A DNA stretch of 64,000 bases from Candidatus Dojkabacteria bacterium HGW-Dojkabacteria-1 (lineage in GTDB: Bacteria > Patescibacteriota > Dojkabacteria > SC72), in NCBI GenBank assembly GCA_002840365.1, contig PHAO01000001.1:239242-303241 (forward strand), written 5' to 3'. Numbering within the stretch: the stretch's first letter is position 1; every line of letters starts with the position of its first letter. The notes below the pieces were generated by a model, which saw nothing but the letters and a program-made list of their open reading frames with translations, had not been told where the DNA came from and made no database searches. Positions 3,690 through 51,903 of the stretch are shown here, in pieces. The translations under genes were made by a program, and so were the position numbers.

Positions 3690-6626
3690 ATGATAAAACT
3701 ACTAGAAGGTCTTTTTGACTCTAACGAAAAACAACTTAAAAAAATTCAACTAATTGTAAATGAGATTAACTCCTTAGAAGAGGAAATGAGTAAGCTCTCT
3801 GATGAGAAGCTTAAGAAGAAAACAGAAGAGTTTAGAAAGATACTTAATGTAGACTTAGAACAATCAAGAAAAGATTTCTATGAACTCAGTAGAGAAGAAC
3901 TTAAGAAAATACTGGATGAAGAGAAAAAAGTCCTTAGAGAAATACTACCTCAAGCATTTGCAGTAGTAAGGGAAGCATCAAAGAGGGTTGCTAATCACAG
4001 ACACTTTGATGTTCAGGCAATGGCTGGATATGTATTGTTTGATAACAAGGTTGCTGAGCTGTTTACGGGTGAAGGTAAAACATTAGCAGCTAATATGCCT
4101 CTTTACCTGTATGCATTAACAGGTAGGGGAGCACATTTAGTTACTGTAAATGATTACCTTGCAAGAAGAGATGCAGAATGGAATGGGCATATATTAAATA
4201 GTCTTGGTATGACTGTCGCAGCTATTAACTCTGGTACACAGTATAGATATATTACTGATGAAGAGGTTCTTAAGCTCAAAGGGGATGAAGGTAAAGAGCT
4301 AATTGAGCAAAGAGAGAAAAAAGCTAAAGAGGCGGGTAGACTTAAGTATGATCATATGAGTGGTGTAAATCTAATTGAGTGTAGTAAAAAAGAAGCATAT
4401 GACTGTGATGTTGTATATGGTACTAACAATGAATATGGTTTTGATTACTTAAGAGACAATATGGTTGCCAGTTTAGCTGAGAGAGTTCAGGGTCCTAGAT
4501 ATTTTGCAATTGTAGACGAAGCAGACTCCATTTTGATTGATGAAGCTAGAACTCCTTTAATCATTTCTACTAGTGCAGAGGCATCTAATGAGATGTACAA
4601 ACAGTTTGCTAATTTAGCTAAGTCTTTACAAAAAGAAAAGCACTATACAGTAGATGAAAAATCTAATTCTGTATCCTTAAACGATGAGGGTATTGATGCA
4701 GTAGAGAAACTTCTGAAGGTTAAGAATGTATATGAGAATGCACAACTGGCATATCATTTAGACAATGCACTCAAAGCAAAAGAGCTCTACAAACTTGATG
4801 ATGAATATATGATTAAGGATGGTGAGGTATTAATAGTTGATGAGTTTACAGGAAGAGCTTTACCTGGAAGAAGATACAGTGAGGGATTACATCAAGCAAT
4901 AGAGGCTAAGGAAGGTGTAGAGGTTAAACGTGAGAGTAGAACCATGGCAACCATTACACTACAGAACTACTTTAGGTTGTATTCATACCTTTCAGGTATG
5001 ACAGGTACAGCACTTACTGAAGCTGAAGAGTTTGCATCCATTTATAATCTGGATACCATTGTTGTTCCTACTAACAGGCCTGTTGTAAGAAAGGACTACA
5101 ATGATGTTGTTTACAGAACAATGATGGGTAAATTCGAAGCTATCGTTGAAGATATTAAAGAACACAATGCAAAGGGGCAACCCATACTTGTTGGTACTAC
5201 ATCGGTAGAGAAGTCTGAGGCCTTGTCTATGATGCTTTCTAAAGAAGGTATTGCTCATGAGGTCTTAAATGCAAAACATCACGAGAGAGAGGCTAAGATA
5301 GTGTCAGAAGCAGGTCAAAAAGGCGCAGTTACAATTGCTACAAATATGGCAGGTAGAGGTACAGATATTGCTTTAGGTGAAGGAGTTAAGGAAGCTGGCG
5401 GATTGTATATCATTGGTTCAGAAAGACATGAATCTAGAAGAATAGATAACCAGTTAAGAGGTAGAGCAGGAAGACAGGGTGATCCAGGTGAATCAAAGTT
5501 CTTTGTATCATTCGAAGATGAACTGATGAGACTTTTTGGTGGAGAAAGAATGCAAGCAGTAATGACTCAAGCAGGACTTGAGGATGATATGCCAATATCA
5601 ATGGGTATACTAGGTAAAACTATAGAGAATGCTCAAAAGAAAGTAGAAGCTCACAACTATGATATTCGTAAAAGACTTGTTGAATATGATGATGTTTTAA
5701 ACAAACAAAGAAATATCATATATGATTTAAGAGCTAAGGTATTAGAAATATCTAGTGAGAGAAAGGAAACTGAAGAAATATCTTTAGAAAAAGATATTAA
5801 ATATACAACTAATTTAGATATTGAAAACCTTCAAGATATATTAGATGGTTTCGCAGTAACGAAGAAGGATACTTGGGATATTCAACAGCTAGAGGGATTA
5901 AAATTTAAACTTAATCCTTTGGATATATCCATTTTAAAGAAACTACTTGAATACATAGATATGCTTGTTCAAGCACAGCTTGAAGATGATATGGAGATAG
6001 ATAACATTGAGGAGAGAAATTTGTATATACAGGTAAAAAACTTACTTACAGAAGAGATATTTGAAAAAGGAGTAAAAGATCTTTCATTTAAAAACAGTAT
6101 TGAATTTTTTAGAAGTTTAGAAGGAAAGAGTATTACTGATATTAGTAAAGAATTAAAAAGATTGATATTTGTATCATATATTGAGCATATATATTCGATA
6201 GGGGTAGAGCCAATGAGGGAGCTATCTAAGGTACTAATACTTCAGGGGATAGACAGATATTGGATGGAACATCTTGATAATATGCAAGACTTAAGAGAGG
6301 GTATTTCTTTACGTAATCTTGCTCAAAGAGATCCTTTAGTAGAATACAAAAATGAAGGTTTCAGACTGTTTGATTCCATGCTAAGAAGTATTGATGAAAA
6401 TACTGTTAGTAGATTCTTCAAGGTAAGGGTGGTAAGAAATCAAAGTCCTTTACAAGCACCAATACAAACAGAAAAAGAAGAGGTAAGGAGTTTAACAGAC
6501 AACAGGCCAGGTAATGTAAGTAAGCAACAAACCGTTAAGAGAAGTAAGAAGGTAGGACGTAATGATCCTTGCCCATGTGGTAGTGGAAAGAAGTACAAGA
6601 AGTGTCATTATCCTGAATTTGAATAG
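3690..6626 (+). CDS. secA: preprotein translocase ATPase SecA (978 aa, with lineage-specific insertions)
   Basis: Full-length SecA architecture readable in the translation: NBD1 Walker A (TGEGKT), DEAD-like [17 protein letters not shown], and a C-terminal zinc finger [13 protein letters not shown]. Confidence 0.97.
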
Positions 6627-6643
6627 CTATTATTATGGGTTTA

Positions 6644-6670
6644 TTGACCTATCTCTCTTAATTGTAATAT
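6644..6670 (+). promoter_or_regulatory. candidate sigma70-type promoter (TTGACC ... TAATAT) between secA and the next gene
   Basis: TTGACC at 6644-6649 and TAATAT at 6665-6670 with a 15-nt spacer, TG immediately upstream of the -10; spacer is shorter than optimal. Confidence 0.2.
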
Positions 6671-6704
6671 CCTAGATTACTGTAATCAGTTATCGGTTAT
6701 AATT

Positions 6705-7199
6705 ATGTCAAATCATGAAAATACAAAGAAGGTAGTTACCCAGCGACAAAGTGTACATGTAGTTTTTTTCTCCTGTCCTGATTGTGGTGAAGAAACCGAA
6801 CATATTCAACTCTGTCCAGATTGTTCCAAACCAATGAGGGTAATAGATGTCGTTGAGAAGTTTGGAGATGATGCAGATGCATTTTTAAAAAAAGTTCAAG
6901 AGAAGATTGAGAATGGTACTTTTAAAAAAGATGATTTAATAGCTGTAGATGAAGAAGAACAACCTAATGTCATTGTCCTTGCAGACGATGATTCATTAGA
7001 TGATGGAGCTGTTGTTGATGATGGTGTTGACACATTAGGAGATATATTTCCTGATGATGAAGATGATGAGAAAGTTACCTCTTCTGCCCCAGAGGGTCTA
7101 ACAGATTTAGACGACATTGTCGCAGAATTAGATAAGGAAGAGGATGACGACTTCCCACTTGTTGATGACTTGGGGGATGAGGGTCTTCCAGAGCTTTAA
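6705..7199 (+). CDS. small zinc-ribbon protein with a long poly-acidic (Asp/Glu-rich) C-terminal tail
   Basis: CPDCGEETEH...CPDCSKP (CxxC-N11-CxxC) followed by about 90 residues dominated by D/E; stop overlaps the start of the next gene. Confidence 0.5.
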   Translation: MSNHENTKKVVTQRQSVHVVFFSCPDCGEETEHIQLCPDCSKPMRVIDVVEKFGDDADAFLKKVQEKIENGTFKKDDLIAVDEEEQPNVIVLADDDSLDDGAVVDDGVDTLGDIFPDDEDDEKVTSSAPEGLTDLDDIVAELDKEEDDDFPLVDDLGDEGLPEL

Positions 7200-8347
7200 T
7201 GCAAGAAAAATATTTCAAAAGAGTTGCTGTAATTGCTGATCAAATGACTTCCTTTGGTGGTGCTGATAGGGAGATGTTTTCAATGTTAAAACTTTTTCCT
7301 AATGCAGATATATATACCATTGCATTTGATGCAAACAAATATATTGGTATAAAGCAGAGGGTATATACAAGCTTTGTACAAAGAATACCTAAACCAAAAT
7401 CATTCTACAGACATTTAAAAATATTAACACCATGGGCATATGAAAGCTTTGATTTAAGGAAATACGACCTTGTAATTAGCATCTCAGCTGGTCCGGCAAG
7501 GGGAGTAATTACTGGTATATATCAACCCCATATCGCAATGGTAATGACCCCACCAAGAAGTCTTTGGGACAATGAACTTAATGTAAGAGCCTCTCGGTTA
7601 AAGAATATCTACAAACCAATTTCAACAATATTAAACACATATATGCGTATATGGGATTTAAGTATTTCTAAACGTGTAGATTACTGGACTGCTAATTCGA
7701 AATATATTGCAAAGAAAATACTAAAGAGATATGGGACTAATGCTACAGTAATATATCCTGGAATTTCAAAAGAGAGTTTTGAAAAAGTATCTAAGGAGCA
7801 GAAAAGAAAGATTTGTGAAAAGTACGACATAGAAGGAGAGTTTGTTCTTGTTGTATCTCGTTTGTACGATTACAAAAGAATAGATTGGGCAATACGAGCA
7901 TGTTTAAAAGCAGGTAAGCAATTAGTAATAGTTGGAGAAGGTCCAGATATGAAATATCTAAAGAGTATAGCTAATGGAAATACTCTAATTAAGTTCCTTG
8001 GATTTGTAGAAGATGATAGCGAAGTAAGAGTGTTTTTTAATATTGCAGAAGTATTACTCTTTTGTGGTATAGAGGATTTTGGATTGGTACCTGTAGAAGC
8101 TATGGCACAGGGGACACCAGTTTTTGCATATGAAGAGGGTGGCGTATTAGAAACAGTTAAGAGAGGTATATGTGGAGAATTTTTCAAAGATGAAAAAGAA
8201 TTAACTAAACTACTTAAGAATTTTAAGAAGAGAAGGTATAATCCTAGAGAGATTGTTAAAAGGGCACAGGAATTTACAGAAGAAAAGTTCTTAAATAATC
8301 TAGAAGAATATATTAAAAAAGTATATGACACAGAAAGAAAAAAGTAG
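7199..8347 (+). CDS. GT4-family glycosyltransferase
   Basis: EDFGLVPVEAMAQGTPVFAYEEGGVLETV, the canonical GT4 (E-x7-E) C-terminal motif. Confidence 0.85.
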   Translation: MQEKYFKRVAVIADQMTSFGGADREMFSMLKLFPNADIYTIAFDANKYIGIKQRVYTSFVQRIPKPKSFYRHLKILTPWAYESFDLRKYDLVISISAGPARGVITGIYQPHIAMVMTPPRSLWDNELNVRASRLKNIYKPISTILNTYMRIWDLSISKRVDYWTANSKYIAKKILKRYGTNATVIYPGISKESFEKVSKEQKRKICEKYDIEGEFVLVVSRLYDYKRIDWAIRACLKAGKQLVIVGEGPDMKYLKSIANGNTLIKFLGFVEDDSEVRVFFNIAEVLLFCGIEDFGLVPVEAMAQGTPVFAYEEGGVLETVKRGICGEFFKDEKELTKLLKNFKKRRYNPREIVKRAQEFTEEKFLNNLEEYIKKVYDTERKK

Positions 8348-9497
8348 TACATACAAGATAGCGGTAGTAGCAGATCCTCTTTACAAATATGGTGGAGCAG
8401 AGAAACATCTAGGAGATATACTTAGAGCTTTTCCAAACAGTACTCTTTTTACTGCATTTTGTGATAGGGATTTTGTTAAAAAATACTATCCTAATGTTGA
8501 AATTAAAACTTCCTTTATGCAATATATACCGGGAAAGTTTAAGTTCAGATATTTTCTTCAGTTAATACAACCTCTAGCTTACAAATCTTTTAGATACAAA
8601 GGATATGATGCGATAGTTTCAATATCTATTGCCTTTGCAAAATTCACAAGAGGAAATATTCCACATATAAATATATGTATGTCTCCTACGAAGTTCTTCT
8701 GGGAGAAAGAGGGTAGAACACTTAAGGAGAACAATCAATTAAAAGGAATTAATAGATTCCTATTTAGCTTCTACTCCTTCTTTATGGATACCTTCTTAGA
8801 AGATATCTGGAAAGGGTGGGATAAGGGTGCAGCTCAAAAAGTAGATAAAATGATAGCTATATCAAAAGCAGTTCAAAAGCGTATTAAAAAGTATTACCAA
8901 AGAGATAGTGATGTAATATATCCTCCTGTTGAAGTAAAAGCTATTCAAGAATTAACTAAAGTAAATAGGAAAGAAAACTGGTTTCTGTATCTTGGAAGAG
9001 TAGAAACATACAAAGGAGTAGAGCTTGCAATAAGGGCAGCTCATGATGCTAAGGTACCACTTAAGATTGCAGGTATAGGGGATGATTTAGAAAGAATGAA
9101 GGAGTTGGTAAAGGAATTAAATGCAAAGGGTTATGTCAAATTCTTGGGTTTTGTTTCAGAAGAGGAGAAACTAGAATTACTTTCTAAAGCTAAGGCTTTG
9201 ATTTTTCCTGTTAGGGGAGAAGACTTTGGTATTGTCCCTGTAGAAGCCAATGCAGCTGGTACCCCCGTTATTGCTTACAGAGATGGTGGTGTAGTTGAAA
9301 CTATTTCGGATATTAATCCTAAGAGTGGAGAGTTTTTCAAAAAGTATGATTACAAATCTCTTGCAAGGATACTTAAGAAATTTGATGGAAGACAGTACAA
9401 GGCAGAAAACTGTAGAAAACAAGCAAGTAACTTTGCAGTAGAAATCTTTATTTACAAGCTACAAAGGTATGTAGATGATGCTATACAGAATCGTTAA
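8325..9497 (+). CDS. GT4-family glycosyltransferase (second copy, overlapping start with upstream gene)
   Basis: EDFGIVPVEANAAGTPVIAYRDGGVVETI GT4 motif; translationally coupled to 7199..8347. Confidence 0.85.
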   Translation: MTQKEKSSTYKIAVVADPLYKYGGAEKHLGDILRAFPNSTLFTAFCDRDFVKKYYPNVEIKTSFMQYIPGKFKFRYFLQLIQPLAYKSFRYKGYDAIVSISIAFAKFTRGNIPHINICMSPTKFFWEKEGRTLKENNQLKGINRFLFSFYSFFMDTFLEDIWKGWDKGAAQKVDKMIAISKAVQKRIKKYYQRDSDVIYPPVEVKAIQELTKVNRKENWFLYLGRVETYKGVELAIRAAHDAKVPLKIAGIGDDLERMKELVKELNAKGYVKFLGFVSEEEKLELLSKAKALIFPVRGEDFGIVPVEANAAGTPVIAYRDGGVVETISDINPKSGEFFKKYDYKSLARILKKFDGRQYKAENCRKQASNFAVEIFIYKLQRYVDDAIQNR

Positions 9498-10107
9498 AAG
9501 AATCCTTGATTTAATACTAGCCACAGTACTTTGGATACTTACATCTCCATTAATGTTGTTGATTTCGATATTGATAAAGGTGTCTGATGGAGGTGAGGTG
9601 TTTGTTGGTACCCCTATTAGATATGGTCTGAATGGGAAATCATTCTTTATGTACAAATTTCGTACAATGATTCCGAATGCTCATCATATTGCGATGAACA
9701 ATGGTGAAATCAAAGACAAACTTTTAGGTAATCACAAGCTTGAGGGTGATATGAGAGTAACAAAGATTGGAAAGATATTGAGAAATACAGACTTGGATGA
9801 ATTACCTCAACTTATAAATGTAATTCTTGGTCAAATGAGTATGGTTGGTCCTAGGCCTTTTTATGAGGAGGAGGTTCTACATCACTTAGAGAAATATCCA
9901 GAAGACAAAAAATATTTTGAAGTCATCTTTAAATCGAAGCCTGGATTAACTGGCATCTGGCAAGTATCAGGCAGGAATGAAATACCTTTTAGAAAGAGAC
10001 TACAAATGGAGAGTGAATATGCTCTTAAACCTAGTATACTTAAGGATATGTACATATTTCTAAAAACTCCAATAATCGTCCTTACAAGAAAAGGTGCTCT
10101 TCAGTAG
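9475..10107 (+). CDS. bacterial sugar transferase (undecaprenyl-phosphate phosphoglycosyl transferase, short WbaP/WcaJ C-terminal-domain type)
   Basis: Single N-terminal TM helix then YKFRTM ... DELPQLINVILGQMSMVGPRP, the PF02397 signature. Confidence 0.85.
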   Translation: MMLYRIVKRILDLILATVLWILTSPLMLLISILIKVSDGGEVFVGTPIRYGLNGKSFFMYKFRTMIPNAHHIAMNNGEIKDKLLGNHKLEGDMRVTKIGKILRNTDLDELPQLINVILGQMSMVGPRPFYEEEVLHHLEKYPEDKKYFEVIFKSKPGLTGIWQVSGRNEIPFRKRLQMESEYALKPSILKDMYIFLKTPIIVLTRKGALQ

Positions 10108-10120
10108 ACCCGGGTCTACT
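10103..10120. repeat. perfect 18-bp palindrome AGTAGACCCGGGTCTACT overlapping the TAG stop codon of the sugar transferase
   Basis: Sequence is its own reverse complement; a near-identical copy (AGTAGACTAGGGTCTACT) is at 15996..16013. Confidence 0.8.
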
Positions 10121-10148
10121 AATATGTCTTAATATAGATAGATAAAAA

Positions 10149-10162
10149 TAGACTAGAGTCTA
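10149..10162. promoter_or_regulatory. inverted repeat TAGACT-AG-AGTCTA ending 3 nt upstream of the recO start codon; candidate operator
   Basis: 6-bp arms sharing the TAGAC/GTCTA core with the 10103 palindrome. Confidence 0.35.
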
Positions 10163-10164
10163 CT

Positions 10165-10779
10165 ATGAGGGATATTGTAACTGTAATAAAGTCGGTTAAT
10201 TACTCAGAAGCAGATAAAGTGCTTACTGTTTTTGGTAAAAGCATAGGTAAGTTTGCTCTCTTTGCAAAAGGTATTAGAAAGATTAATAGTAAGAATAGGG
10301 GGAATATGCAAACTCTTTGTACTAGTGAAATATCCTTCTATGAGGGTAAGGGTTTACCTGTACTGACAGAATCACAGCTAATACACTCTCCTAATACAGA
10401 TGTTCTAAAGGACAGAGTCGAGAATCTAAACAGAGTTTTAGTTATGCTTAATCGTATCCTTGCAGAATATGATTCTAATGAAAAGGTTTTTGAGATGTTG
10501 CAAAGCGTCTTAAAGAAGGATTTCAATATTGAATCTGTTAACAGATTCCGAGTAATCTTTCTTAAAGAGATGGGTTTTTTGCAAGATTTTTCTAAGTGTA
10601 ATATCTGTGGTAATGAGAAAGATTTAAGATATATTGATGTTTCTAACTTTGCCCTTCTTTGTAAAAACTGTTACATTAATGTAGGAAAGTGCTATGAATT
10701 AGGTGATAATCCATATACAGAGGAATTCTTTACACAGGCTTTGGATATATATGTTAAGAAAGTAATTGAAGAGATATAG
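10165..10779 (+). CDS. recO: DNA repair protein RecO
   Basis: N-terminal OB-fold-like region; C-terminal CNICGN ... CKNC zinc-binding CxxC-N-CxxC; size 204 aa. Confidence 0.7.
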   Translation: MRDIVTVIKSVNYSEADKVLTVFGKSIGKFALFAKGIRKINSKNRGNMQTLCTSEISFYEGKGLPVLTESQLIHSPNTDVLKDRVENLNRVLVMLNRILAEYDSNEKVFEMLQSVLKKDFNIESVNRFRVIFLKEMGFLQDFSKCNICGNEKDLRYIDVSNFALLCKNCYINVGKCYELGDNPYTEEFFTQALDIYVKKVIEEI

Positions 10780-10781
10780 CT

Positions 10782-12845
10782 ATGAGAATTAAAACTGCCA
10801 TATTACAATTCTGTCTTCTTGTATCTCTTTTTCTTTTTGTTCCCAATATATATGCTCAATTACAAGAAGATGTTGTTGTTACAGCAAATATTAATGTAGA
10901 TTTTTACTCCACAGTAAATGTTAATCCTTCAACGGTAGAAATATTTCAACCTAGTATCGTAGAGATAAGGGTACTTAATCCTAATGGTCAGGGTATACCT
11001 GGAAGACAGATAGTGATTGTTGCTCCTGGATTAAATATTACCCAACCTATTACACTTACTGATGCAACTGGTAGGACAACAGGTTCTGTCTCTAGTGGTA
11101 CTGCAGGAACATATACTGTCTGTGCAAAGGATACTACCTTTGGCTATGACATTGATATACAAAACTGTAAAACCTTGTATGTAATTCCTGTACCAGTTCC
11201 AAGTATGCTTCCTGAGCCACAGTATACAAAGGGTTTAACTAATACTGTTTTATGGCAAAGTTTAGGTACTGCATATAGGTACAATGTTCAGGTTAGTGAA
11301 TTTTCAAACTTTAGCGTAATTAAGCAGGAGTCAGGAGTTATTAATGCTACATCTTTTGAGTTTACAAATCTTGAAAATGGAAAGATGTACTTTTACAGAG
11401 TAAGGGCTCAAAATCTCTTTGGTGGTATAGGTGGGTGGTCTAATTCTGTATATAGTGTTCAAGATGCACAAAATCCATCTATCTCCATATTAGATATTGG
11501 TGGTGTTGGAGAAAATACTACTAACAATTGGAGTAGTAGTTTTACAATTACAATGCTTTTCAGGGTTACAGATAACCTGCAATTAGCTAGTACTCAATTC
11601 ATATGTCTTAATTCCCAAGGTAATTCATATCCTTGTACAAATAGCTCTAATCAAGAAGGAGATATATTTACTGTAAATATTAGGTTAGGTGATTTAGAGA
11701 GAATCTCAGGTACATTCCTAAGGCAGAGATATGAGTTCTGTGTAGAGGCCGTAGATGGTGCTACAAATGTTCAAAGGTTGTGTAATATATATATTGATAT
11801 TCCTCCGGGTGAAGAGGTTGTAGAGCCTCCTGTAGTCCCTCCAATTATCAAACGAGTAGAGAAGGTAATAGAGGATATTAATGTAATATTAGATGATACT
11901 GTTGGTAAGTTAGATCCTAAGGATTTGGATAGGGTAACTACAACTACTTCTGTTGTTACTGCTACTTCCGCAATCGCTATTGCTGCTGGTGGTTTAGGTA
12001 GTCTTCCATATTTCCTTCTTCAGCTATTCCTTAATCTTCTTTCTTTACTTGGATTTAGAAAGGGTGCTAAGCCTGTTGGTTTTGTATATGACTCTGTTAC
12101 TAAAGAGCCAATTTCTCAAGCTATTGTTAGAATCTTTAATGAAGAGAGTCGTATTGTATGGTCAGATGTAACTGATGGTAAAGGATATTTTACGGCTAGA
12201 TTAAAGGATGGTAAGTACAAGATTGTAGTAAGAGCGCCAAGATATATATATCCTTCTACTGTAGTATTTGGTAAAGAAGATTATCCTGTTACCAATGTCT
12301 ATCATGGTGAAGAGTTTGTTGTATCAAGTGAGACAGAAATCAATTTTGCTATTCCTCTTGATCCAATGGAAACATCAAAGTTAAGACTTAGATTAGAAGG
12401 TTTCTGGACTAGAGTTAGGTTCATAGTGAACATTTTACATGTTCTTCTTTTCCTTGCTGGTATTACTTTAGCTTTCTATACATATTACAATTCACCGTCT
12501 GTTCTTTCATTGGTAGTACTTCTTCTGTTTGTTCCAACTTTCTTCTTCATATTAAGAAATATCTTCTTACACAGGGACAGGTATGGATTTGTTTTAGACA
12601 AAGCAAAGAATCGTTTGGAGGGAGTAGTCATTGGTCTAAGAGAGTCTGAGTTTGACAAGATTGTTGCAAAGAGAGTAACAGATGTAAGAGGTAGGTATAG
12701 GTTCCTTGCTGATGAGGGTAGATATTACATTGAGATTTTAGATACTGGTTACAAGGTAGAGAGTATTAAGGGTGGTAATGAGGTATATGTTAAGAAGGAG
12801 ATGTTGGTTACAAGGGATATTGTTCTTACAAGGTTATCTAAGTAG
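10782..12845 (+). CDS. secreted surface protein: signal peptide, Fn3-like domain, C-terminal TM + carboxypeptidase-regulatory-like beta-sandwich + TM segments
   Basis: N-terminal signal peptide ending IYAQ; YFYRVRAQNLFGGIGGWS Fn3 signature; C-terminal GFRKGAKPVGFVYDSVTKEPISQAIVRI ... EDYPVTNVYHGEEF module paralogous to the C-terminus of the 2203-aa protein. Confidence 0.7.
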   Translation: MRIKTAILQFCLLVSLFLFVPNIYAQLQEDVVVTANINVDFYSTVNVNPSTVEIFQPSIVEIRVLNPNGQGIPGRQIVIVAPGLNITQPITLTDATGRTTGSVSSGTAGTYTVCAKDTTFGYDIDIQNCKTLYVIPVPVPSMLPEPQYTKGLTNTVLWQSLGTAYRYNVQVSEFSNFSVIKQESGVINATSFEFTNLENGKMYFYRVRAQNLFGGIGGWSNSVYSVQDAQNPSISILDIGGVGENTTNNWSSSFTITMLFRVTDNLQLASTQFICLNSQGNSYPCTNSSNQEGDIFTVNIRLGDLERISGTFLRQRYEFCVEAVDGATNVQRLCNIYIDIPPGEEVVEPPVVPPIIKRVEKVIEDINVILDDTVGKLDPKDLDRVTTTTSVVTATSAIAIAAGGLGSLPYFLLQLFLNLLSLLGFRKGAKPVGFVYDSVTKEPISQAIVRIFNEESRIVWSDVTDGKGYFTARLKDGKYKIVVRAPRYIYPSTVVFGKEDYPVTNVYHGEEFVVSSETEINFAIPLDPMETSKLRLRLEGFWTRVRFIVNILHVLLFLAGITLAFYTYYNSPSVLSLVVLLLFVPTFFFILRNIFLHRDRYGFVLDKAKNRLEGVVIGLRESEFDKIVAKRVTDVRGRYRFLADEGRYYIEILDTGYKVESIKGGNEVYVKKEMLVTRDIVLTRLSK

Positions 12846-18602: not shown

Positions 18603-19625
18603 TTGTATATTTTTAATATGGAAAATACAGATTACAAAGTACAAGTTTTTACAGGGATTAGGCCCTCTGGTGGTTTAACTATTGCTAATGCAATTGGTGC
18701 TGTTAATCCCATTGTAAAGATACAAGAGGAAGAAGAGGTTGGTAATACAATGGTCTTTGTTGCAGATTTGCATGCCTTAACTGATGCTGAACCAAAAGAA
18801 ACTCAAAGTAACATTGTTGATGTCGTAAAGGATTACATCTCTTTGGGTTTGGATGTAAACAGAAACAGAATCTTTGTGCAGTCTTTTCTTACTCAAGAGA
18901 TAGCTGAATTGAACTTGTATCTTTCAAGACTTGTCACTATTGCAGAATTAATGAGAGTACCTACATTAAAAGAAAAGATTAAGAAGGGACAAAACGAGAG
19001 TAATGCTAGTGCATTACTTGCAATGTACCCTATTATGATGGCTTCAGATATTCTTTTACAAAAATCTGAATATGTTCCTGTTGGTGAGGATCAGGTTGCC
19101 CATATTGAAATTACTAGAGTATTGGCTCAGAAGTTTAACAAAAAATATGGAAATGTATTCCCTCTTCCTAAGGTATTGTCTTTGGGTAAGCCTGTAAGGA
19201 TTAAGTCTTTGACTGGTAATGGAAAGATGAGTAAAACAGATCCTAGTGGAGCAATTCTACTAGATGATCCGATTGAGATATCTTTAAACAAGGTAAAGAG
19301 AGCTCAAAGTGCTTTTGCCAAAGAGAAGTCAGAGAGTTTAGATTCTTTGGTATTGATAGGGGAGTTTGTTGGAAACGAAAAAGAGAGAGAAGAAATACTA
19401 TCCATTATGAAAAGACACTATGATGGTGAGAATGTAATGGGTGAGCTAAAGGGTGTAATTTCTACTGGCTTAGAAAGATTTTTAAAGGAGTTTCAAGAGA
19501 AGAAAGCATCTTTGAAAGAGGAGGATATTCTCAAGAAGGTAAAAATAGATGGTGATATAGCAAGAGAGAATGCTAAAGAGACATTAAGAGATGTTAGGAA
19601 AGCAATGGGATTGGAATATTTTTAA
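18603..19625 (+). CDS. trpS: class I aminoacyl-tRNA synthetase, most likely tryptophanyl-tRNA synthetase
   Basis: KMSKT (KMSKS) motif, degenerate HIGH region (SGGLTIANAIG), 340-aa size typical of TrpRS; TyrRS not excluded. Confidence 0.6.
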   Translation: MYIFNMENTDYKVQVFTGIRPSGGLTIANAIGAVNPIVKIQEEEEVGNTMVFVADLHALTDAEPKETQSNIVDVVKDYISLGLDVNRNRIFVQSFLTQEIAELNLYLSRLVTIAELMRVPTLKEKIKKGQNESNASALLAMYPIMMASDILLQKSEYVPVGEDQVAHIEITRVLAQKFNKKYGNVFPLPKVLSLGKPVRIKSLTGNGKMSKTDPSGAILLDDPIEISLNKVKRAQSAFAKEKSESLDSLVLIGEFVGNEKEREEILSIMKRHYDGENVMGELKGVISTGLERFLKEFQEKKASLKEEDILKKVKIDGDIARENAKETLRDVRKAMGLEYF

Positions 19626-21640
19626 TTATCTCTTATTCTGACAATATATCTTTGTCCATGACCAAACACTTCATCCATATCACCTTCTTTTACAACGAAG
19701 ATTTTTATTCTACCATCATTGTGTCTGTTTGAATCTGCTACAAGCAGTACTGTTTCTCCTCTTTCATCTTTGATTTTATCCAGTATTAATCCGATATGTC
19801 CTGTAGGTTTTCCAGTACCTGCCATTGGGGCACCATCTACTCTTACAAAAAGGTCCCCGGGGTTATAATCATCAATACTAAGTTCTCCTCCTGCAATGGC
19901 TTGGGCTCCATAGTTTGTTGCCATAGACCTTTTCTCTTTATAGGTGTAATTTCTGAGTCCTTCGGGTATTAATTCTCTAGCACTATCTGCTGGAGCACTT
20001 CCAACGTATGGTATTGGTATTTCTGGATACAGCCAGGAGGCCATCATCACAAAGCCTACACATTGTAATGGTTGGTTTTTTACTTGTGCAGTTGTTGATA
20101 ACATAAGTATTCTATCAACCCTTTCTTTGTTTTCTTCTGTAACATACTTTTTATACCAATCAGAGTTTCTTAGGTATTCATTTAATCTTTGTGGATTCTC
20201 ATAGGTATATGTATTTACAGACTCTTGTAATTCCAATACGTTTTTCAAGGTTGAGTTTTGCTCTATTCTTTCTGAAAAAAGTCGTAAATCTTCTACGTTG
20301 TATATTAAATCAGCAGAGTTTTGCATTTGTATATCAATGGGATGATTTAATACATTTATGTCCATTTGATTGTCATTTAGTCTCTCTTGGTGTTGTGAAC
20401 TTCTGAAATATCTGTAGTTTTCAAGGTCTATTGCTAATTTTTCTGTTTGATCTTTTGGAGGAAAGTCTTCAAATGAAAGCGAAACTACAAGAAAGACATC
20501 TGAAAGACCTCCTACACCATCTTTCTCGGTTGCACTATATGGTAAATCAGAGGGAGTTGTAAAAGTTTTAATATGAAGATATTTGTCTTCACCTTGAACC
20601 CATCGAAAGTCAAATGTTTCTCTATCATTGTAATCTACTGTTGCATCTACAAGATATTCAGAAGGACTAAAAGGTCCTTGTGCATACCTTACTGGATGAG
20701 CCCATTGTTCCAAAATTTTGTATTGATTGGTATTTTGTAGATGAACGAGTGCAGAGGTTCCAGTTGCCATTGCGCAGACCCCCCCTCCTTTTACCTTGGA
20801 TTTGGAACTTGTTAGTCCGTATTCGTACTCATTTTTTTTGTTTAAATCTTTTAAACCAATCATATTTAAATATGATTGTTCTGTATTTTTTCTTAGAGGC
20901 CCATTTACATCTTGGTACTCAGACATATTTCTGAGAGCAATTAAGGTATTTGTAACTTTATTAGGATATATGAAATCCTCTGTTACTACATATGATACTA
21001 TTTTACTATTTGTTTCCTTCTCTTTGGTAAACTCTATCTCCGTCCCATTTTCGTCTGTGGCACCAAGGAGCACAGCTGAGACAAAGTTTGCACCAAATGT
21101 ATTCGCGATTAGACCTAATTTAATTTTTTCTCCATTGGGTCCGGTAATATTTCTTATTTCCGCTATTTCAAAACTGTGTCCGTAAGGAACTATTATTTCT
21201 TTAACCTCTCTTCTTTCATCTACAAAATTATCTTTTCTAAGAGGAATCATGTACATCGAAGTTTCATTTAATATTTCTATACCATATCCTGGTTCTTTTG
21301 CTTCAATTTTTTCTATTTTATATTCACTCCAGTCAGTAATATTTAAAATCTCATGATTAAAGGGCTTACTTTCTTGTGATATTGTTTGTTCAGTAGGTGT
21401 TTCAACAAGGGTTTGTATTGAAGGTGTTAGCGTAGGTGTCGCAAAGCTAGGCGCTTTTGCAGTATTTGTATATTCGAACCCCATGGGGGTAGCAAGGGTT
21501 TCAGTAACTGGTGGTTCTGTAACAGCTTCTTCTGCTTTTGCTTGTGCGGATTGGCCTATATTTGTACATCCTGTAACAGCAGAGGCGAGAAGAGATGTTA
21601 CAGTAAGAAGTTCTACTGCTTTGTTGTGTTTTCCTTCCAT
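19622..21640 (-). CDS. lipoprotein with C-terminal CHAP-domain (Cys/His amidase-peptidase)
   Basis: Lipobox AVTGC after a signal peptide; C-terminal QCVGFV ... PGDLFV ... GHIGLILD matches the CHAP Cys/His pattern; 1-nt gap from the giant surface-protein gene. Confidence 0.6.
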   Translation of the reverse strand: MEGKHNKAVELLTVTSLLASAVTGCTNIGQSAQAKAEEAVTEPPVTETLATPMGFEYTNTAKAPSFATPTLTPSIQTLVETPTEQTISQESKPFNHEILNITDWSEYKIEKIEAKEPGYGIEILNETSMYMIPLRKDNFVDERREVKEIIVPYGHSFEIAEIRNITGPNGEKIKLGLIANTFGANFVSAVLLGATDENGTEIEFTKEKETNSKIVSYVVTEDFIYPNKVTNTLIALRNMSEYQDVNGPLRKNTEQSYLNMIGLKDLNKKNEYEYGLTSSKSKVKGGGVCAMATGTSALVHLQNTNQYKILEQWAHPVRYAQGPFSPSEYLVDATVDYNDRETFDFRWVQGEDKYLHIKTFTTPSDLPYSATEKDGVGGLSDVFLVVSLSFEDFPPKDQTEKLAIDLENYRYFRSSQHQERLNDNQMDINVLNHPIDIQMQNSADLIYNVEDLRLFSERIEQNSTLKNVLELQESVNTYTYENPQRLNEYLRNSDWYKKYVTEENKERVDRILMLSTTAQVKNQPLQCVGFVMMASWLYPEIPIPYVGSAPADSARELIPEGLRNYTYKEKRSMATNYGAQAIAGGELSIDDYNPGDLFVRVDGAPMAGTGKPTGHIGLILDKIKDERGETVLLVADSNRHNDGRIKIFVVKEGDMDEVFGHGQRYIVRIRDN

Positions 21641-21641
21641 T

Positions 21642-24600
21642 TTATGTTCTTGCTATCTTAAGATTTCTGTTAATCAATTTTCTTCCCTTAGTTGATATTT
21701 CTGTTTTACCTTCTACAATCTTTATACCACTATCTGTTGTTTCTATAATATATTCTCCTTTCTCTGAGATATCAAATGAGTATCTCCCTTCCGAGTCTGT
21801 AACTCTTTTTGCTACTACCTTATCAAAATCTTTGTCCTTAAGTATGAGTATGATATTTACAGCGGGTGTACCATTTTCATAAAGAACTTTTCCTGTTTTT
21901 CTTCTCATACCAATAATGCTTTTTACAAGAACATATGTGGTTGGAATGTAAAGTAGTAATATCGCTAGGTTTTGTGTAATTGGATTCTTTGAGTATACAT
22001 ATGAAGCTATTGTAATACCTCCAAGGAAGAGAATTAGGTTTATGATTGGTAGTATAGATGAAGCAAAACTTCTGAAGAGAGTAAATGCTTTCTTTTGTAT
22101 TGCTTTCTGATCTGGGTCTATGGGGATTACAACATTTATTTCATTTTCCTTAAGCAGTATCTTTTCTCCGTGGTATACATTGGAAAGTGGGTAATCTTCC
22201 TTTCCAAGTATTAGTTTAGATGGGAAGTCATAGTTTCTTCCTTTCACTTCAAGTATATATTCTCCGGTAGGGATGTCTGTTCTAAAGAGTCCATACCCAT
22301 CTGTTACTGCAGTATCAACAAGTTTTTTCTCAAGATCATATATTCTAACAATTGCTTGCTGTATTGGTGCTCTTGTAATTGAATCATATACATATCCAGC
22401 AGGGTATCTCTTTCTTCTAAACCCTATTGAGCTTAGGATGTTGATAAAGATTTGTGACATAGCATATCCTACCTGTCCAAGGTTTCCTAAGATTGATGCT
22501 AATCCTACTGAAACAGTAACTGCAGTAGCAGTAGCTGATACCGTAGTGAGTCTTTCTTTTTCTATATTTCCCAGTGGTGAGCTATCAAGTAAATTGAATG
22601 TTGTAGTTACTACTCCCTCTACTGCATTAGAGATGTTGTCCCTTATTCTTCCTGTTGTTGGTATTACTGCTGGTTTCTCATACAGTTCTCCCTGTGCACC
22701 TGTTCCTCTTAGTCCATCTGCTATCCAATATGTTACTCCTGATATACTTGCTTGAGATACTGTTACATCATTTCCTTCGACTTTTAGCTTTTGAGGGAAG
22801 TTTCCTGTATACAGGACTGCTTTGTTACAATCAACTTTTATTTCTTCTAAGCTTCTTGCTTCTGGACATATTCTAAATGCGTTGTCTGAATCCTTTTTAA
22901 CTACATACATAGTATACTTATCTGTTAATCCATGTGTAGTATTAAGCTTCACAACAGTCTTACCTTGTTGTGGAGAAGTTTGAATAATTGCATTACTCCA
23001 GTCTCTGTTGTTCTCAAATGATATTGGTAAGTCAGCTACAACAAAATCTTCAGTTAAGATTCTTACTGTTTGAACACCTGTTTGTGCTCCTTCAACATTA
23101 CTTACATCAATATTTCTGTTGTCTACAAGTATAGTACTTATGTTTTCAGGCTTGTTAAGAATAATGGAGAATGTTTTACCTGTATTACTTTCTACAAATG
23201 CAGTTTCTACATTTGCATTGTTAATAGCCTTAACTCTAAATGCATATTGGGCTCCAGGTTCAAGAGATCTAATTGTTAAACCGGTATTTCCTCCCCATGA
23301 TGAATGCGTTCCCCAAACGACATTGTCTACAAGTTGCATGGTTGTATAGTCAAGATATTTTCCAGTGTTACTTTCCTGTATTGCAAATCTTGTAGTAGTG
23401 GGGTTTCCATTTCTGTCGAATCTTATCCTACCTGTACTTCCTCCTACGGTTTCAAAGATTAGGTCTCTTGGAAGGTTGGCCCATGTGGTAGCAGAAATTG
23501 TTTCAGAGAATCCTGAGAACAAATTATCTGAGTTAACGCTTCTTACTCTAAAGGTATATGTTGTATTTGGTGGAAGATTTGCTAATGTGAAGTTACTGTT
23601 TACTCTTGTATCATCATGTATTACTGTTGCAGTTGTAAATCTGTTTTCGTTATCAATATTTCCATTTGTTACTGCTTCAACCAATTGATATCTTGTATTT
23701 GCAGGATTAAGATTCTTGTCTACAGTTAATTCTATTGAACTTCCACTAATTACTCTTGCTCTTACACTTGGTACTCTTGAGAAGGTATGTGCACTTATTG
23801 ATTGGGAACAATCTGTTTCAAGATTTTGAGAGTTTCTTGCTCTTACACAGAATGTATATCTTGTATTGGCTTCTAGGTTTTGAATATTTACTCCACTGTT
23901 ACTACCGAAATCTTGTAAGGATCTCCATACAGGTTGTGTATCGAATACTCTTGTTGATGGATTCACATTCTGATTACGATTTACTTCCATTAATCTGTAT
24001 GTAGTAGAGGTGTTGTTACTGTTAGCATTAATCACTACAGACATTGTAGTTGTATCAATTGCTGTTACAGAGGTAATAGCTGGTTGGTAAGAAAGAGTAA
24101 TGATACTTACTTCATTACCATATTCTGTCTCTATGGAGTCATCATTAAGGGCTTTTACTCTGAAGGTATATTCTGTATTTGGTAATAGTCCATATACGGT
24201 TATTCCATTATTTGAGCCCAACTGTATATATGTTGCATAGTAGGGTGAGTCCTGAAGTAATTGAGAGTTAGTATTAAGATATTTCCCAGAGATTTTTTCT
24301 TGTAGAAGATATCTAGTAGTAGAAGGATTATTATTTGTATTTACAGTTAAGTCAACACTGTCAGCAGTATATTTTCCTGCTGTAATATTTTGTAATGATG
24401 GTACATTTGCAAACGTTATTGCAGAAACCACATTACTAAATGTACTCTCTGCAATACTGTTGTATATTTTCATTTTCCTTGAGTAAGAGGTATTAGGTTG
24501 CAGGTTGTTTTCTGTACAGCTAAGTATTTCTGTCCCAAGACAGGTTTTAATTAATACTCCATTTTCGTTATACAACTTAATACCTAATATACTGTCTGTA

Positions 24601-38688: not shown

Positions 38689-39270
38689 TTAAAATATATC
38701 TTTTTTCTCTTTCTCTGTAAATCTTCTTATAGTTGGAATTACAAAATAGTTAAACACAGATATTAGTAATCCCAATACAATTGCCCCTATACTCCATTCT
38801 ATTACTCCTGGTAAGAATAGTTGAATAAATGCATATCGTATATTCTGTATTGAGAAGTTAAGTACCATATTTTCAAAATTAGGTAGTCCTACAAAGAATA
38901 GTAGGAATACATAGTGCAGGTAGTAAGAGATTACAGAGATTAGGTATGCCAATATTGTTCTAAGGGTAAGAATTTTAAGAGATATTAGTTTCTCTTTTTT
39001 ACTTTTAATGTATACATACAGACTTAGTAAGTACCATGGTAGTAACATATATATGAACAGAGGGATGAGTTGTAATGGATTGTTGCTGTTTCCAAATATT
39101 TTAGAAAAGATGGGGCTAATGGTATTTTGATAATGGAAATCAAAGATACCGAAGAGAAAAGATATTGTTATAAGGGTGAAAATACTTCTTTTCATTTTAG
39201 ATACTATAACACAAAGAGATATGAGTAAAAAATATTTACAAAGTAGTACTGTTTTGATAAATTGAATCAA
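38689..39270 (-). CDS. polytopic membrane protein, unknown function
   Basis: 193 aa, about 5 hydrophobic helices. Confidence 0.4.
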   Translation of the reverse strand: MIQFIKTVLLCKYFLLISLCVIVSKMKRSIFTLITISFLFGIFDFHYQNTISPIFSKIFGNSNNPLQLIPLFIYMLLPWYLLSLYVYIKSKKEKLISLKILTLRTILAYLISVISYYLHYVFLLFFVGLPNFENMVLNFSIQNIRYAFIQLFLPGVIEWSIGAIVLGLLISVFNYFVIPTIRRFTEKEKKDIF

Positions 39271-39347
39271 TATATGAGAAAACTTGCCTACCCTTCATTC
39301 ATGTTTTTGTTTACAGCATTAATACTTTTTCTTTTTTACCATCAAAG

Positions 39348-51823: not shown

Positions 51824-51896
51824 GCGCTGGTGGGGAAGTTGGTATCCCGTTGGATTTTAAATCCAAAGCTCGAAGGTTCAAGTCCTTCCCAGCGCG
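51824..51896 (+). tRNA. canonical 73-nt tRNA cloverleaf with anticodon TTA (reads UAA/UAG); suppressor-type tRNA with Gln-like features (discriminator G73, UUUUAAA loop)
   Basis: Acceptor GCGCTGG/CCAGCGC, D-arm GGGA-AGTTGGTA-TCCC, anticodon stem TTGGA/TCCAA with loop TTTTAAA, variable AGCTC, T-arm GAAGG-TTCAAGT-CCTTC; all arm lengths canonical. Confidence 0.55.
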
Positions 51897-51903
51897 CCTT
51901 AAG

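What the first reader, a model, noticed from the sequence alone, without database searches (positions are those of the whole stretch)
10782..12845. Recurrent C-terminal anchor module (TM + carboxypeptidase-regulatory-like beta-sandwich + TM helices) shared by three unrelated large surface proteins
The C-terminal roughly 250 residues of the 687-aa protein are clearly paralogous to the C-terminus of the 2203-aa protein, and the 857-aa GLUG-repeat protein (39348..41921) also ends with a CarbopepD-like beta-sandwich and a TM anchor. The shared segments are GFRKGAKPVGFVYDSVTKEPISQAIVRI ... EDYPVTNVYHGEEF in the 687-aa protein and GFRRKRYPAGYVYDSITRAPIQQAIVRI ... EDYPLSNVYHGEKI in the giant. This looks like a lineage-specific cell-surface sorting or anchoring cassette, analogous to LPXTG, PEP-CTERM or archaeal PGF-CTERM but structurally different, that is reused by different passenger domains.
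Basis: seen in the sequence. Interest (0 to 1): 0.6.

Follow-up and report, generated by a model that had tools for sequence, protein, structure and literature searches.

The report
Shared membrane-anchor module of Patescibacteria surface proteins
Two otherwise unrelated surface proteins in this window end in the same ~310-residue membrane-anchoring module (membrane helices alternating with two small beta-sandwich domains), which turns out to be a very large, apparently undescribed family that ultrasmall Patescibacteria (CPR) bacteria attach to many kinds of secreted protein; it is not a short cleavable sorting signal.

Summary
The 687-aa protein (10782..12845, +) and the 2203-aa protein (21642..28253, -) share a C-terminal block of about 340 residues (37% identity, E 2e-72), longer than the 250 reported. 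The 857-aa GLUG protein is not a member: it has only a generic, sub-threshold beta-sandwich and one terminal helix.

The module is a tandem duplication of [membrane helix, basic linker, CarboxypepD_reg/transthyretin-like sandwich] joined by one extra helix. A profile search found 2823 representative clusters at E<=1e-30, a count inflated by tandem-repeat proteins. Of 126 full-module proteins examined, 114 carry it within 30 residues of the C-terminus. They range from about 260 to 3662 aa. Passengers include fn3, GLUG, cadherin-like, beta-helix, LamG and beta-propeller domains, mostly behind signal peptides. Free-standing copies of about 310 aa also exist. Every named source is Patescibacteria.

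I found no cleavage motif, no match to a known sorting-signal model and no recurrent enzyme neighbour. My best reading is an uncleaved stop-transfer anchor with three membrane helices. Charge bias, helix-count parity and composition put both sandwiches in the cytoplasm (inferred, about 65%). I classify it as a new variant of a known kind.

The parts
10782..12845 (+). P1 gene (687 aa): signal peptide, Big_1/fn3-type passenger, then the C-terminal anchor module
   Evidence: ORF. Pfam hits Big_1, fn3 and CarboxypepD_reg (63.5 bits). About 45 syntenic orthologues of roughly 690-720 aa sit downstream of RecO in Dojkabacteria-type genomes.
10782..10856 (+). P1 signal peptide (MRIKTAILQFCLLVSLFLFVPNIYA|Q)
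   Evidence: Read directly from the sequence. The same MK/RIKTAL... N-terminus is present in the orthologues. The cleavage site is inferred.
11934..12056 (+). P1 hydrophobic region 1 (aa 385-425). It consists of a Thr/Ser/Ala-rich half (1a) and an amphipathic Leu-rich half (1b) and is followed by the basic linker RKGAK. I take it to be the stop-transfer membrane crossing.
   Evidence: Family profile. Hydrophobicity and hydrophobic moment. AF2 predicts helices 9-36 and 38-52 with a one-residue break.
12075..12365 (+). P1 beta-sandwich 1 (aa 432-528): CarboxypepD_reg/transthyretin-like domain with the conserved extension Y.FPS...NVYHGE...IPLDP. This is the most conserved part of the module.
12420..12569 (+). 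P1 TM2-TM3 helical hairpin (aa 547-596) with the short uncharged loop YNSPS. It is basic on both outer flanks.
   Evidence: AF2 helices. Lys/Arg profile. Octanol-scale scores of -9.2 and -12.9.
12585..12833 (+). P1 beta-sandwich 2 (aa 602-684), a paralogue of sandwich 1
   Evidence: hhalign of unit 1 against unit 2 gives probability 99.4-99.5% and E about 1e-21. The AF2 strands have pLDDT of roughly 86-96.
21642..28253 (-). P2 gene (2203 aa): basic N-terminus with a hydrophobic signal or anchor, a DUF2341 / Rha78A-Ig / multiple-fn3 passenger, then the same C-terminal module
   Evidence: ORF, Pfam. P2-like giants lie in the same relative position in L005 and L007.
21645..22571 (-). P2 anchor module (aa 1895-2203). 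Region 1 lies at about 22419-22541, sandwich 1 at about 22113-22400, TM2-TM3 at about 21906-22067 and sandwich 2 at about 21648-21893.
   Evidence: BLASTP against P1. Pfam CarboxypepD_reg, 42.7 bits in two stretches. Alignments A1 and A4.

Best explanation
P1 and P2 end in a shared module of about 310 residues that serves as a permanent, uncleaved membrane anchor for Sec-exported surface proteins of Patescibacteria.

Anatomy (shown): a hydrophobic region of about 40 residues, an Arg/Lys linker, a transthyretin-like (CarboxypepD_reg) beta-sandwich with a conserved FPS...NVYHGE...IPLDP extension, a two-helix hairpin, a second basic linker and a second sandwich. It arose by tandem duplication of a [TM helix, basic linker, sandwich] unit.

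Mechanism (inferred): the N-terminal signal peptide sends the passenger through Sec. The first hydrophobic region, with its basic flank, acts as a stop-transfer sequence. The TM2-TM3 hairpin then inserts. The result is three membrane crossings, with the passenger outside and both sandwiches pressed against the cytoplasmic face. The strongly conserved first sandwich probably binds a common partner or ligand, or self-associates.

The module also works as a free-standing membrane protein in some lineages, so it is more than a sorting tag.
For: Homology and anatomy:
- P1 and P2 share 37% identity over 340 aa, E 2e-72.
- Both proteins pass the Pfam CarboxypepD_reg cut-off with two stretches each.
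- AF2 (pLDDT 86) gives helix, sandwich, two helices, sandwich.
- hhalign of unit 1 against unit 2 gives 99.4-99.5% probability.

Family:
- 2823 cluster representatives at E<=1e-30.
- 114 of 126 full modules lie at the extreme C-terminus. N-terminal extensions run from 1 to 3346 aa.
- 76 of 87 Met-start fused members have an N-terminal signal-like segment.
- Passengers are typical extracellular domains.
- Named sources are Dojkabacteria, Saccharimonadales, Microgenomates, Curtissbacteria, Magasanikbacteria and Uhrbacteria.

Not a cleaved signal:
- Genuine stand-alone genes exist.
- No known sorting-signal model or motif matches.
- The juxtamembrane motif is present in only about a third of members.
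- No recurrent enzyme neighbour.

Cytoplasmic sandwiches:
- Across 118 members, Lys+Arg per sequence is 3.9 just after region 1, about 4.0 before TM2 and 2.7 after TM3. It is 0.2-0.5 in the opposite loops, and the flank ahead of region 1 is acidic.
- Stand-alone variants have either an uncharged or acidic short N-tail, one TM helix and then a basic stretch. P0014 instead has a very basic N-terminus and two TM helices. In both, the second hydrophobic stretch is only 8-9 residues flanked by Arg/Lys, so parity puts the sandwich inside.
- Half 1a is only marginally hydrophobic in 44 of 118 members.
- The sandwiches have cytoplasm-like composition (charged residues 24% and 33%, Lys+Arg 11.5% and 18%). 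Their own passengers have 17.6% and 5.2%.
Against: - The topology is inferred. No dedicated topology predictor was available and there are no experimental data.
- Region 1 is about 40 residues long, with a central Gly/Pro and an AF2 kink. In 71 of 118 members both halves could span the membrane. That would give four helices and place the sandwiches outside with the passenger.
- The closest structural relatives of the sandwich are overwhelmingly extracytoplasmic: NOMO, carboxypeptidase D, CnaB pilins and SlaB.
- No cytoplasmic partner has been identified.
- Uncleaved status is inferred from architecture only.
- The family count is inflated by proteins with tandem CarboxypepD_reg repeats (41 of the 167 proteins examined).
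Confidence: 0.6

Rival explanations
1. Same family and same anchoring role, but a four-helix topology. Region 1 would be a helical hairpin, so the passenger and both sandwiches are all outside. The sandwiches would act as a membrane-proximal stalk or as wall- or glycan-binding feet.
For: - Region 1 is about 41 residues long with a central Gly/Pro.
- AF2 breaks the helix at one residue.
- 71 of 118 members have two TM-like halves.
- The duplication could be read as two copies of [hairpin plus sandwich].
- Structural neighbours of the fold are mostly extracellular.
- There is a loose sugar-related context: two GT4 genes and Bac_transf upstream of P1, PMT_2 overlapping a stand-alone copy, and a semiSWEET gene next to another.
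Against: - It would place about 10 Lys/Arg per protein on the outer membrane flanks and almost none inside.
- It is impossible for the Saccharimonadales-type members, whose second half is only 8-9 hydrophobic residues between basic residues.
- Half 1a is sub-threshold in 37% of members.
- The composition of sandwich 2 is cytoplasm-like.
Confidence: 0.27
2. One reading: a cleavable C-terminal sorting cassette, analogous to LPXTG, PEP-CTERM or PGF-CTERM, recognised by a dedicated processing enzyme that releases the passenger or attaches it covalently.
For: - The module is C-terminal, lies on secreted proteins and is shared by many passenger types.
- A D-x-x-[VI]-G-x-L motif ahead of region 1 is conserved in about a third of members.
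- A sortase gene lies 2.5 kb upstream of one member.
Against: - The module is about ten times longer than known sorting signals and contains two well-folded, highly conserved domains.
- Free-standing copies exist that have nothing to sort.
- No NCBIfam sorting-signal model or motif matches.
- The upstream motif is not universal.
- No enzyme family recurs beside it; only housekeeping synteny is seen.
Confidence: 0.05
3. The module is primarily an autonomous membrane protein with its own activity, for example ligand or ion handling by the conserved His/Glu/Asp-bearing sandwich 1. Anchoring of passengers would be a secondary by-product of gene fusion.
For: - Verified stand-alone genes exist.
- Sandwich 1 is more conserved than the TM helices: 2.32 against about 1.6 bits per column, with near-invariant Y-D-S-x-T-K, T-D-x-x-G, F-P-S, N-V-Y-H-G-E and I-P-x-D-P.
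- There is a weak NCBIfam hit of P2 sandwich 2 to a NikL-family ECF subunit model, 24.6 bits against a cut-off of 100.
Against: - The great majority of members examined are fused, always at the C-terminus, to secreted passengers.
- No catalytic or transporter family is matched.
- This reading is compatible with the best explanation rather than exclusive of it.
Confidence: 0.08

Closest known systems
LPXTG / sortase cell-wall sorting signal (Gram-positive bacteria)
   Same: It is C-terminal, sits on signal-peptide-bearing surface proteins with many different passengers, and contains a hydrophobic stretch followed by basic residues that halts translocation.
   Different: The LPXTG signal is about 35 aa, has a defining cleavage motif, is removed by sortase and is never free-standing. 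Here the module is about 310 aa, has no LPXTG-like motif, contains two folded sandwiches and extra TM helices, and also occurs alone.
PEP-CTERM/exosortase, PGF-CTERM/archaeosortase and GlyGly-CTERM/rhombosortase signals
   Same: They are lineage-restricted C-terminal tags shared by many secreted proteins.
   Different: These are short tripartite signals (motif, TM helix, basic tail) with a dedicated, co-distributed enzyme. No model hit, no motif and no recurrent enzyme neighbour were found here.
Type IX secretion C-terminal domain (Por_Secre_tail)
   Same: It is a C-terminal beta-sandwich domain appended to diverse passengers.
   Different: The T9SS domain has no TM helices, belongs to diderm Bacteroidota and is cleaved by PorU. 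P1 and P2 do not match the Pfam model.
C-terminal TM anchor plus cytoplasmic tail of Mollicutes adhesins (for example Mycoplasma pneumoniae P1) and, more loosely, eukaryotic integrin- or cadherin-type receptors. This comparison rests on my own knowledge and was not tested here.
   Same: This is the 'works like' comparison: a large extracellular adhesin-type ectodomain held by a stop-transfer helix, with a conserved cytoplasmic portion that can couple to intracellular structures.
   Different: No sequence or fold relationship. Those tails are short or disordered, not paired beta-sandwiches with an extra TM hairpin. Coupling is unproven here.
NOMO (BOS complex) and archaeal SlaB: stacked prealbumin/transthyretin-like sandwiches ending in a TM anchor
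   Different: In NOMO and SlaB all the sandwiches precede a single terminal TM helix and lie on the non-cytoplasmic side. Here the sandwiches follow TM helices and are predicted to be cytoplasmic. Only single-domain similarity was found.

Membership tests
CarboxypepD_reg (Pfam PF13620), transthyretin-like sandwich | Whole-protein HMM score at or above the gathering cut-off of 32.3 bits | tested here: met
   P1 scores 63.5 bits and P2 scores 42.7 bits, each with two stretches. P3 scores 20.8 bits and does not pass.
CarboxypepD_reg (Pfam PF13620), transthyretin-like sandwich | Transthyretin/prealbumin-like beta-sandwich fold | tested here: met
The module family defined here (profile A1/A4) | One continuous match to at least 230 of the 318 profile positions, covering region 1, sandwich 1, the TM hairpin and sandwich 2 | tested here: met
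   P1 and P2 match end to end. 126 database proteins do likewise. P3 does not, scoring 1.8-3.1 bits over 30-37 aa.
The module family defined here (profile A1/A4) | Located at the extreme C-terminus of the protein | tested here: met
   The median distance to the C-terminus is 3 aa, and 114 of 126 are within 30 aa. The longer tails are charged or Pro-rich and contain no further TM helix.
LPXTG/sortase sorting signal | An LPXTG-type motif within about 35 aa of the C-terminus, followed by a hydrophobic stretch and a basic tail | tested here: not met
   A regular-expression scan finds no motif in P1. P2 has only IPTTG, 340 aa from its end. No NCBIfam LPXTG model hit at E<=0.1.
LPXTG/sortase sorting signal | A sortase encoded in the genome that processes the protein | not testable with these tools
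   Only a 64-kb window is available. None of the 33 window ORFs scanned against Pfam is a sortase; the remaining roughly 15 ORFs were not scanned. A sortase near one distant member does not recur.
PEP-CTERM / PGF-CTERM / GlyGly-CTERM signals | A short C-terminal motif, TM helix and basic tail matching the NCBIfam/TIGRFAM models | tested here: not met
   No model hit. There is no PGF or GlyGly-type motif, and the only PEP is at P1 residue 144, inside the passenger.
T9SS C-terminal domain (Por_Secre_tail) | A Pfam PF18962 match at the C-terminus | tested here: not met
   P1 and P2 have no hit. P3 has only E 0.025 at 15.3 bits against a cut-off of 27.
Stop-transfer (type I-like) membrane anchor | An N-terminal export signal plus a downstream hydrophobic segment with a positively charged cytoplasmic flank | tested here: met
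   P1 has a signal peptide and P2 a basic N-terminus followed by a hydrophobic stretch. 76 of 87 family members behave likewise. There are 3.9 Lys/Arg immediately after region 1.
Stop-transfer (type I-like) membrane anchor | The C-terminal portion stays in the cytoplasm and is not cleaved off | not testable with these tools
   Inferred only, from charge bias, parity in the variants and composition. Reporter fusions or proteomics are needed.

The most novel reading that the evidence does not exclude
The module is a Patescibacteria-wide transmembrane coupling device. Two conserved beta-sandwich domains on the cytoplasmic face would link thousands of different surface adhesin-type proteins, from 400 to more than 3600 aa, to one common intracellular partner such as a cytoskeletal, motor, signalling or secretion component. 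That would give these host-attached ultrasmall bacteria an integrin-like inside-outside connection. The free-standing copies would be the ancestral or adaptor form.
Probability: 0.2. Interest if true: 0.8.

Novelty: new variant of a known kind. Interest (0 to 1): 0.55.

Why it matters
Patescibacteria (CPR) are a large share of bacterial diversity. The cultivated ones live attached to host cells, yet how their many large surface proteins are held on the cell is essentially uncharacterised.

This module marks a large, easily searchable set of surface-displayed proteins, on the order of thousands of 50%-identity clusters. That gives a practical handle for cataloguing candidate adhesins and host-interaction proteins in any CPR genome.

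If the two conserved sandwiches really are cytoplasmic, the surface proteins share a common intracellular interface. That would be unusual for a fold otherwise seen mostly outside the cell. It also suggests a testable route for coupling or clustering across the membrane.

No Pfam, NCBIfam or PDB entry captures the architecture, and none of the papers found in the held library mentions it.

Tried and rejected
- A second word-indexed homologue search with profile A2 returned only 5 proteins and added nothing on taxonomy. The listing of cluster members gave almost no names.
- P0002 looked like a stand-alone copy. It is in fact the syntenic P1 orthologue interrupted by an in-frame TGA.
- The mid-size members P0174 and P0281 appeared to lack a signal peptide, which would have challenged the topology. 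They are truncated gene calls. The true ORFs are 755 and 816 aa and have N-terminal hydrophobic signals.
- Neighbour clustering over the fetched loci (539 neighbouring ORFs) recovered only Dojkabacteria housekeeping synteny: RecO, GT4, radical SAM, SecA and a sugar transferase. No candidate processing enzyme emerged. Distant members share no neighbour family.
- Searches for LPXTG, PEP, PGF and GlyGly motifs found nothing relevant. The juxtamembrane motif is confined to a subfamily.
- There are no phage or PHROG relatives.
- AF2 output gives no coordinates, so the angle at the region 1 kink and the side of the membrane on which the domains sit could not be read from the model.
- The metagenome scan for the odd tRNA's anticodon arm hit only its reverse complement inside an ordinary tRNA-Leu(UAA).
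Full report
**What is in the window**

The window has 34% G+C. Its gene content is that of a Patescibacteria (CPR) chromosome, most likely Dojkabacteria/WS6. The best genomic match to the module is 92% identical. Nearly all matched loci (52 of the 54) are titled either Dojkabacteria/WS6 or 'uncultured Candidatus Saccharibacteria'.

- P1 is 10782..12845 (+), 687 aa.
- P2 is 21642..28253 (-), 2203 aa.
- P3 is 39348..41921 (+), 857 aa as called.

**Checking the observation**

BLASTP aligns P1 345-684 with P2 1856-2202 at 37% identity, 60% positives and E 2e-72. Elsewhere the two proteins share only weak fn3-like similarity. The shared block is therefore real and about 340 aa long, with a core of about 310 aa.

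Pfam finds two CarboxypepD_reg stretches in each protein (P1 63.5 bits, P2 42.7 bits, cut-off 32.3). It also finds unrelated passengers: Big_1 and fn3 in P1, and DUF2341, Rha78A-type Ig and several fn3 domains in P2.

A two-sequence HMM of the module hits only P1 and P2 among all stop-to-stop ORFs of the window. P3 scores E 1.7, which is in the noise. Family HMMs give P3 1.8-3.1 bits over 30-37 residues. P3 has a sub-threshold sandwich (20.8 bits) placed before a single terminal helix with an RKKQI tail, which is a different and simpler anchor.

**Anatomy**

AF2 with a 24-sequence alignment gave mean pLDDT 86.2 and pTM 0.52. The predicted elements are:

| Element | Model residues |
|---|---|
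| Helix | 9-36 |
| One-residue break | 37 |
| Helix | 38-52 |
| Beta-sandwich 1 | 63-158 |
| Helix | 163-200 |
| Helix | 204-225 |
| Beta-sandwich 2 | 232-314 |

Sandwich 1 carries a conserved C-terminal extension, Y.FPS...G..D.P..NVYHGE......IP.DP. It is the most conserved part of the module at 2.32 bits per column, against about 1.6 for the helices.

hhalign of the first half against the second half gives 99.4-99.5% probability and E about 1e-21. The alignment starts in the helix that precedes each sandwich. In divergent members the second sandwich also carries the FPS...YHGE...IPLD extension. The module is therefore a tandem duplication of [TM helix, basic linker, G-x-V-x-D sandwich] joined by one extra helix.

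**Family**

A profile search of 1.84 billion cluster representatives found 23,182 hits at E<=1e-3, 7,257 at E<=1e-10 and 2,823 at E<=1e-30. These counts are inflated by proteins with tens of tandem CarboxypepD_reg repeats.

I examined 167 proteins in detail:

- 126 carry the whole module in one stretch.
- 114 of those end within 30 aa of the C-terminus (median 3 aa).
- The N-terminal extension ranges from 1 to 3346 aa.
- 76 of the 87 fused members whose call starts with Met have an N-terminal signal-like hydrophobic segment. Most of the other 11 look like truncated calls.

Passenger domains in 40 diverse members include fn3 (13), GLUG (5), SBBP beta-propeller (4), cadherin-like (3), Flg_new_2 (3), LamG, M26_N, Big_1 and FG-GAP. 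NosD/beta-helix with Big_9 and cadherin domains occurs in another member. Named sources are Dojkabacteria, Saccharimonadales, Microgenomates, Curtissbacteria, Magasanikbacteria, Uhrbacteria and 'Patescibacteria group'. There are no phage relatives.

P1 itself is a conserved protein of about 690-720 aa found downstream of RecO in about 45 genomes. In two of them a P2-like giant lies in the same relative position as in the window.

Genuine free-standing copies of about 310-384 aa exist. Their gene boundaries are fixed by real neighbouring genes. Two apparent exceptions were artefacts. P0002 is a P1 orthologue split by an in-frame TGA. The 'signal-less' P0174 and P0281 are truncated calls of 755-aa and 816-aa genes that do have export signals.

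**Is it a sorting signal?**

I found nothing to support that reading.

- No NCBIfam model for LPXTG, PEP-CTERM, PGF-CTERM or related signals matches.
- No such motif is suitably placed.
- The only conserved juxtamembrane motif, D-x-x-[VI]-G-x-L, occurs in about a third of members.
- No protease- or transpeptidase-like gene recurs next to the module. The neighbours are syntenic housekeeping genes, and distant members share no neighbour.
- The size, the two well-folded domains and the stand-alone copies all argue for a permanent membrane anchor.

**Topology (inferred)**

Four lines of evidence bear on this.

1. Charge bias. Across 118 aligned members, Lys+Arg per sequence is 3.87 in the ten columns after hydrophobic region 1, about 4.0 before TM2 and 2.74 after TM3. 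It is 0.2-0.5 in the middle of region 1 and in the TM2-TM3 loop. The flank ahead of region 1 is acidic. By the positive-inside rule the sandwich side is cytoplasmic. Because the passenger is exported, region 1 should then cross the membrane once.

2. Parity in the stand-alone variants. Some have a short acidic or uncharged N-tail, one strong helix and then KNRLFRPR or KNKKK. P0014 has a strongly basic N-terminus followed by two helices. In both kinds the second half of region 1 is only 8-9 hydrophobic residues between basic residues and cannot span the membrane.

3. Hydrophobicity. On the octanol scale half 1a is marginal (-2.3 kcal/mol for the best 17-residue window) and sub-threshold in 44 of 118 members. 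Half 1b (-8.5), TM2 (-9.2) and TM3 (-12.9) are clear. Half 1b is the most amphipathic segment.

4. Composition:

| Region | Charged residues (KRED) | Lys+Arg |
|---|---|---|
| Passengers | 17.6% | 5.2% |
| Sandwich 1 | 24.1% | 11.5% |
| Sandwich 2 | 32.9% | 18.2% |
| Cytoplasmic proteins of the window | 25.5-31.9% | not computed |
| The GLUG ectodomain (P3) | 15.9% | not computed |

Against this reading:

- Region 1 is about 40 residues long with a central Gly/Pro and an AF2 kink.
- Both halves are TM-like in 71 of 118 members.

I put three helices with cytoplasmic sandwiches at about 65% and the four-helix, all-outside alternative at about 27%.

**Function**

The passengers are adhesin-type ectodomains of a monoderm, probably host-attached, bacterium. 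The module most likely tethers them to the cell membrane through a stop-transfer helix plus a helical hairpin. It would present two conserved sandwiches on the inner face. Their strong conservation and stand-alone occurrence imply a shared interaction with a partner, with lipid, or with each other, beyond mere anchoring. That step is speculative.

**Comparison and novelty**

The module works like a type I stop-transfer anchor. Its closest functional analogy, from my own knowledge, is the C-terminal TM helix plus cytoplasmic tail of Mollicutes adhesins. It fails every tested defining feature of the LPXTG, PEP-CTERM, PGF-CTERM and T9SS-CTD signals.

Its domains belong to the known CarboxypepD_reg family. 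However, no Pfam, NCBIfam or PDB entry covers the whole architecture, and none of the papers found in the held library describes it. One paper notes large fn3/DUF2341 proteins in Patescibacteria as putative adhesins without mentioning their C-termini (PMC11809585).

I classify the module as a new variant of a known kind, of moderate-to-good interest. Its main value is as a marker for the CPR surface proteome and as a testable hypothesis of cytoplasmic coupling.

Noticed in passing
window 51824..51898 (+): A canonical-looking type I tRNA (Rfam 68.8 bits; perfect 7-bp acceptor stem, U33, A37) has the anticodon UUA, which would read the UAA stop codon. It lies between TsaD and enolase, so it is in the core chromosome and not in a mobile element. 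TAA is nevertheless the commonest stop codon of the window's ORFs (28 of 47). Its D-arm is unlike those of the other tRNAs in the window. A metagenome scan for its anticodon arm found only the reverse complement inside a tRNA-Leu(UAA). Unexplained.
   Followed up: partly
window 39261..39350 (start of the GLUG gene 39348..41921): As called, the GLUG protein starts at a GTG codon ('VHAQYSG...') and has no signal peptide. An ATG at 39274 in the +1 frame encodes the signal-like peptide MRKLAYPSFMFLFTALILFLF... It would join the main frame if one base were gained or lost in the T-runs at about 39331-39341. This is either a homopolymer assembly error or a slipped-strand on/off switch.
   Followed up: partly
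L003 7981..7983 (JGI 3300040801 contig, syntenic P1 orthologue): The orthologue is interrupted by an in-frame TGA exactly where relatives have a conserved Gly (DDTI*KLDP against DDTVGKLDP). In the window only 2 of 47 ORFs end in TGA. It could be a GGA-to-TGA error or a pseudogene. A TGA=Gly reading seems unlikely, because the other genes on that contig have normal lengths.
   Followed up: partly
window 19622..21640 (-): A 672-aa predicted lipoprotein (LLASAVTGC lipobox-like N-terminus, weak VanW hit) starts at the P2 stop codon, so it is probably co-transcribed with the giant protein. No homologue was found in the fetched loci.
   Followed up: partly
window 3690..10779; L060 3293..5634; L001 7639..8939: There is a loose sugar or glycan theme around module genes. 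SecA, a 164-aa ORF, two GT4 genes, Bac_transf and RecO precede P1 in about 30-46 of the related loci (counts differ by gene). A stand-alone copy overlaps an upstream PMT_2 (GT-C glycosyltransferase) gene by 4 nt. Another stand-alone copy sits next to a semiSWEET (PQ-loop) gene. This may be only synteny.
   Followed up: partly
L062 4149..6416 and L063 1534..3984: Public gene calls truncate Thr/Ser/Ala- or Pro-rich surface proteins and replace their 5' parts with spurious ORFs in another frame or on the opposite strand, for example an Arg-rich 219-aa 'protein'. Lengths and 'signal-less' status of such proteins in databases are therefore unreliable.
   Followed up: yes
window 44041..47094 (-) and 48344..49231 (+): The window also holds a 1017-aa Type ISP restriction-modification enzyme (Type_ISP_C, E 2e-83) and a GGDEF diguanylate cyclase. 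Neither is related to the finding.
   Followed up: no
P0101 / L059 10001..17632: One family member (2543 aa, beta-helix, Big_9 and cadherin passenger) begins with a sequence that resembles a response-regulator receiver domain instead of a signal peptide. It is either a fused or mis-joined gene call or an unusual architecture.
   Followed up: no
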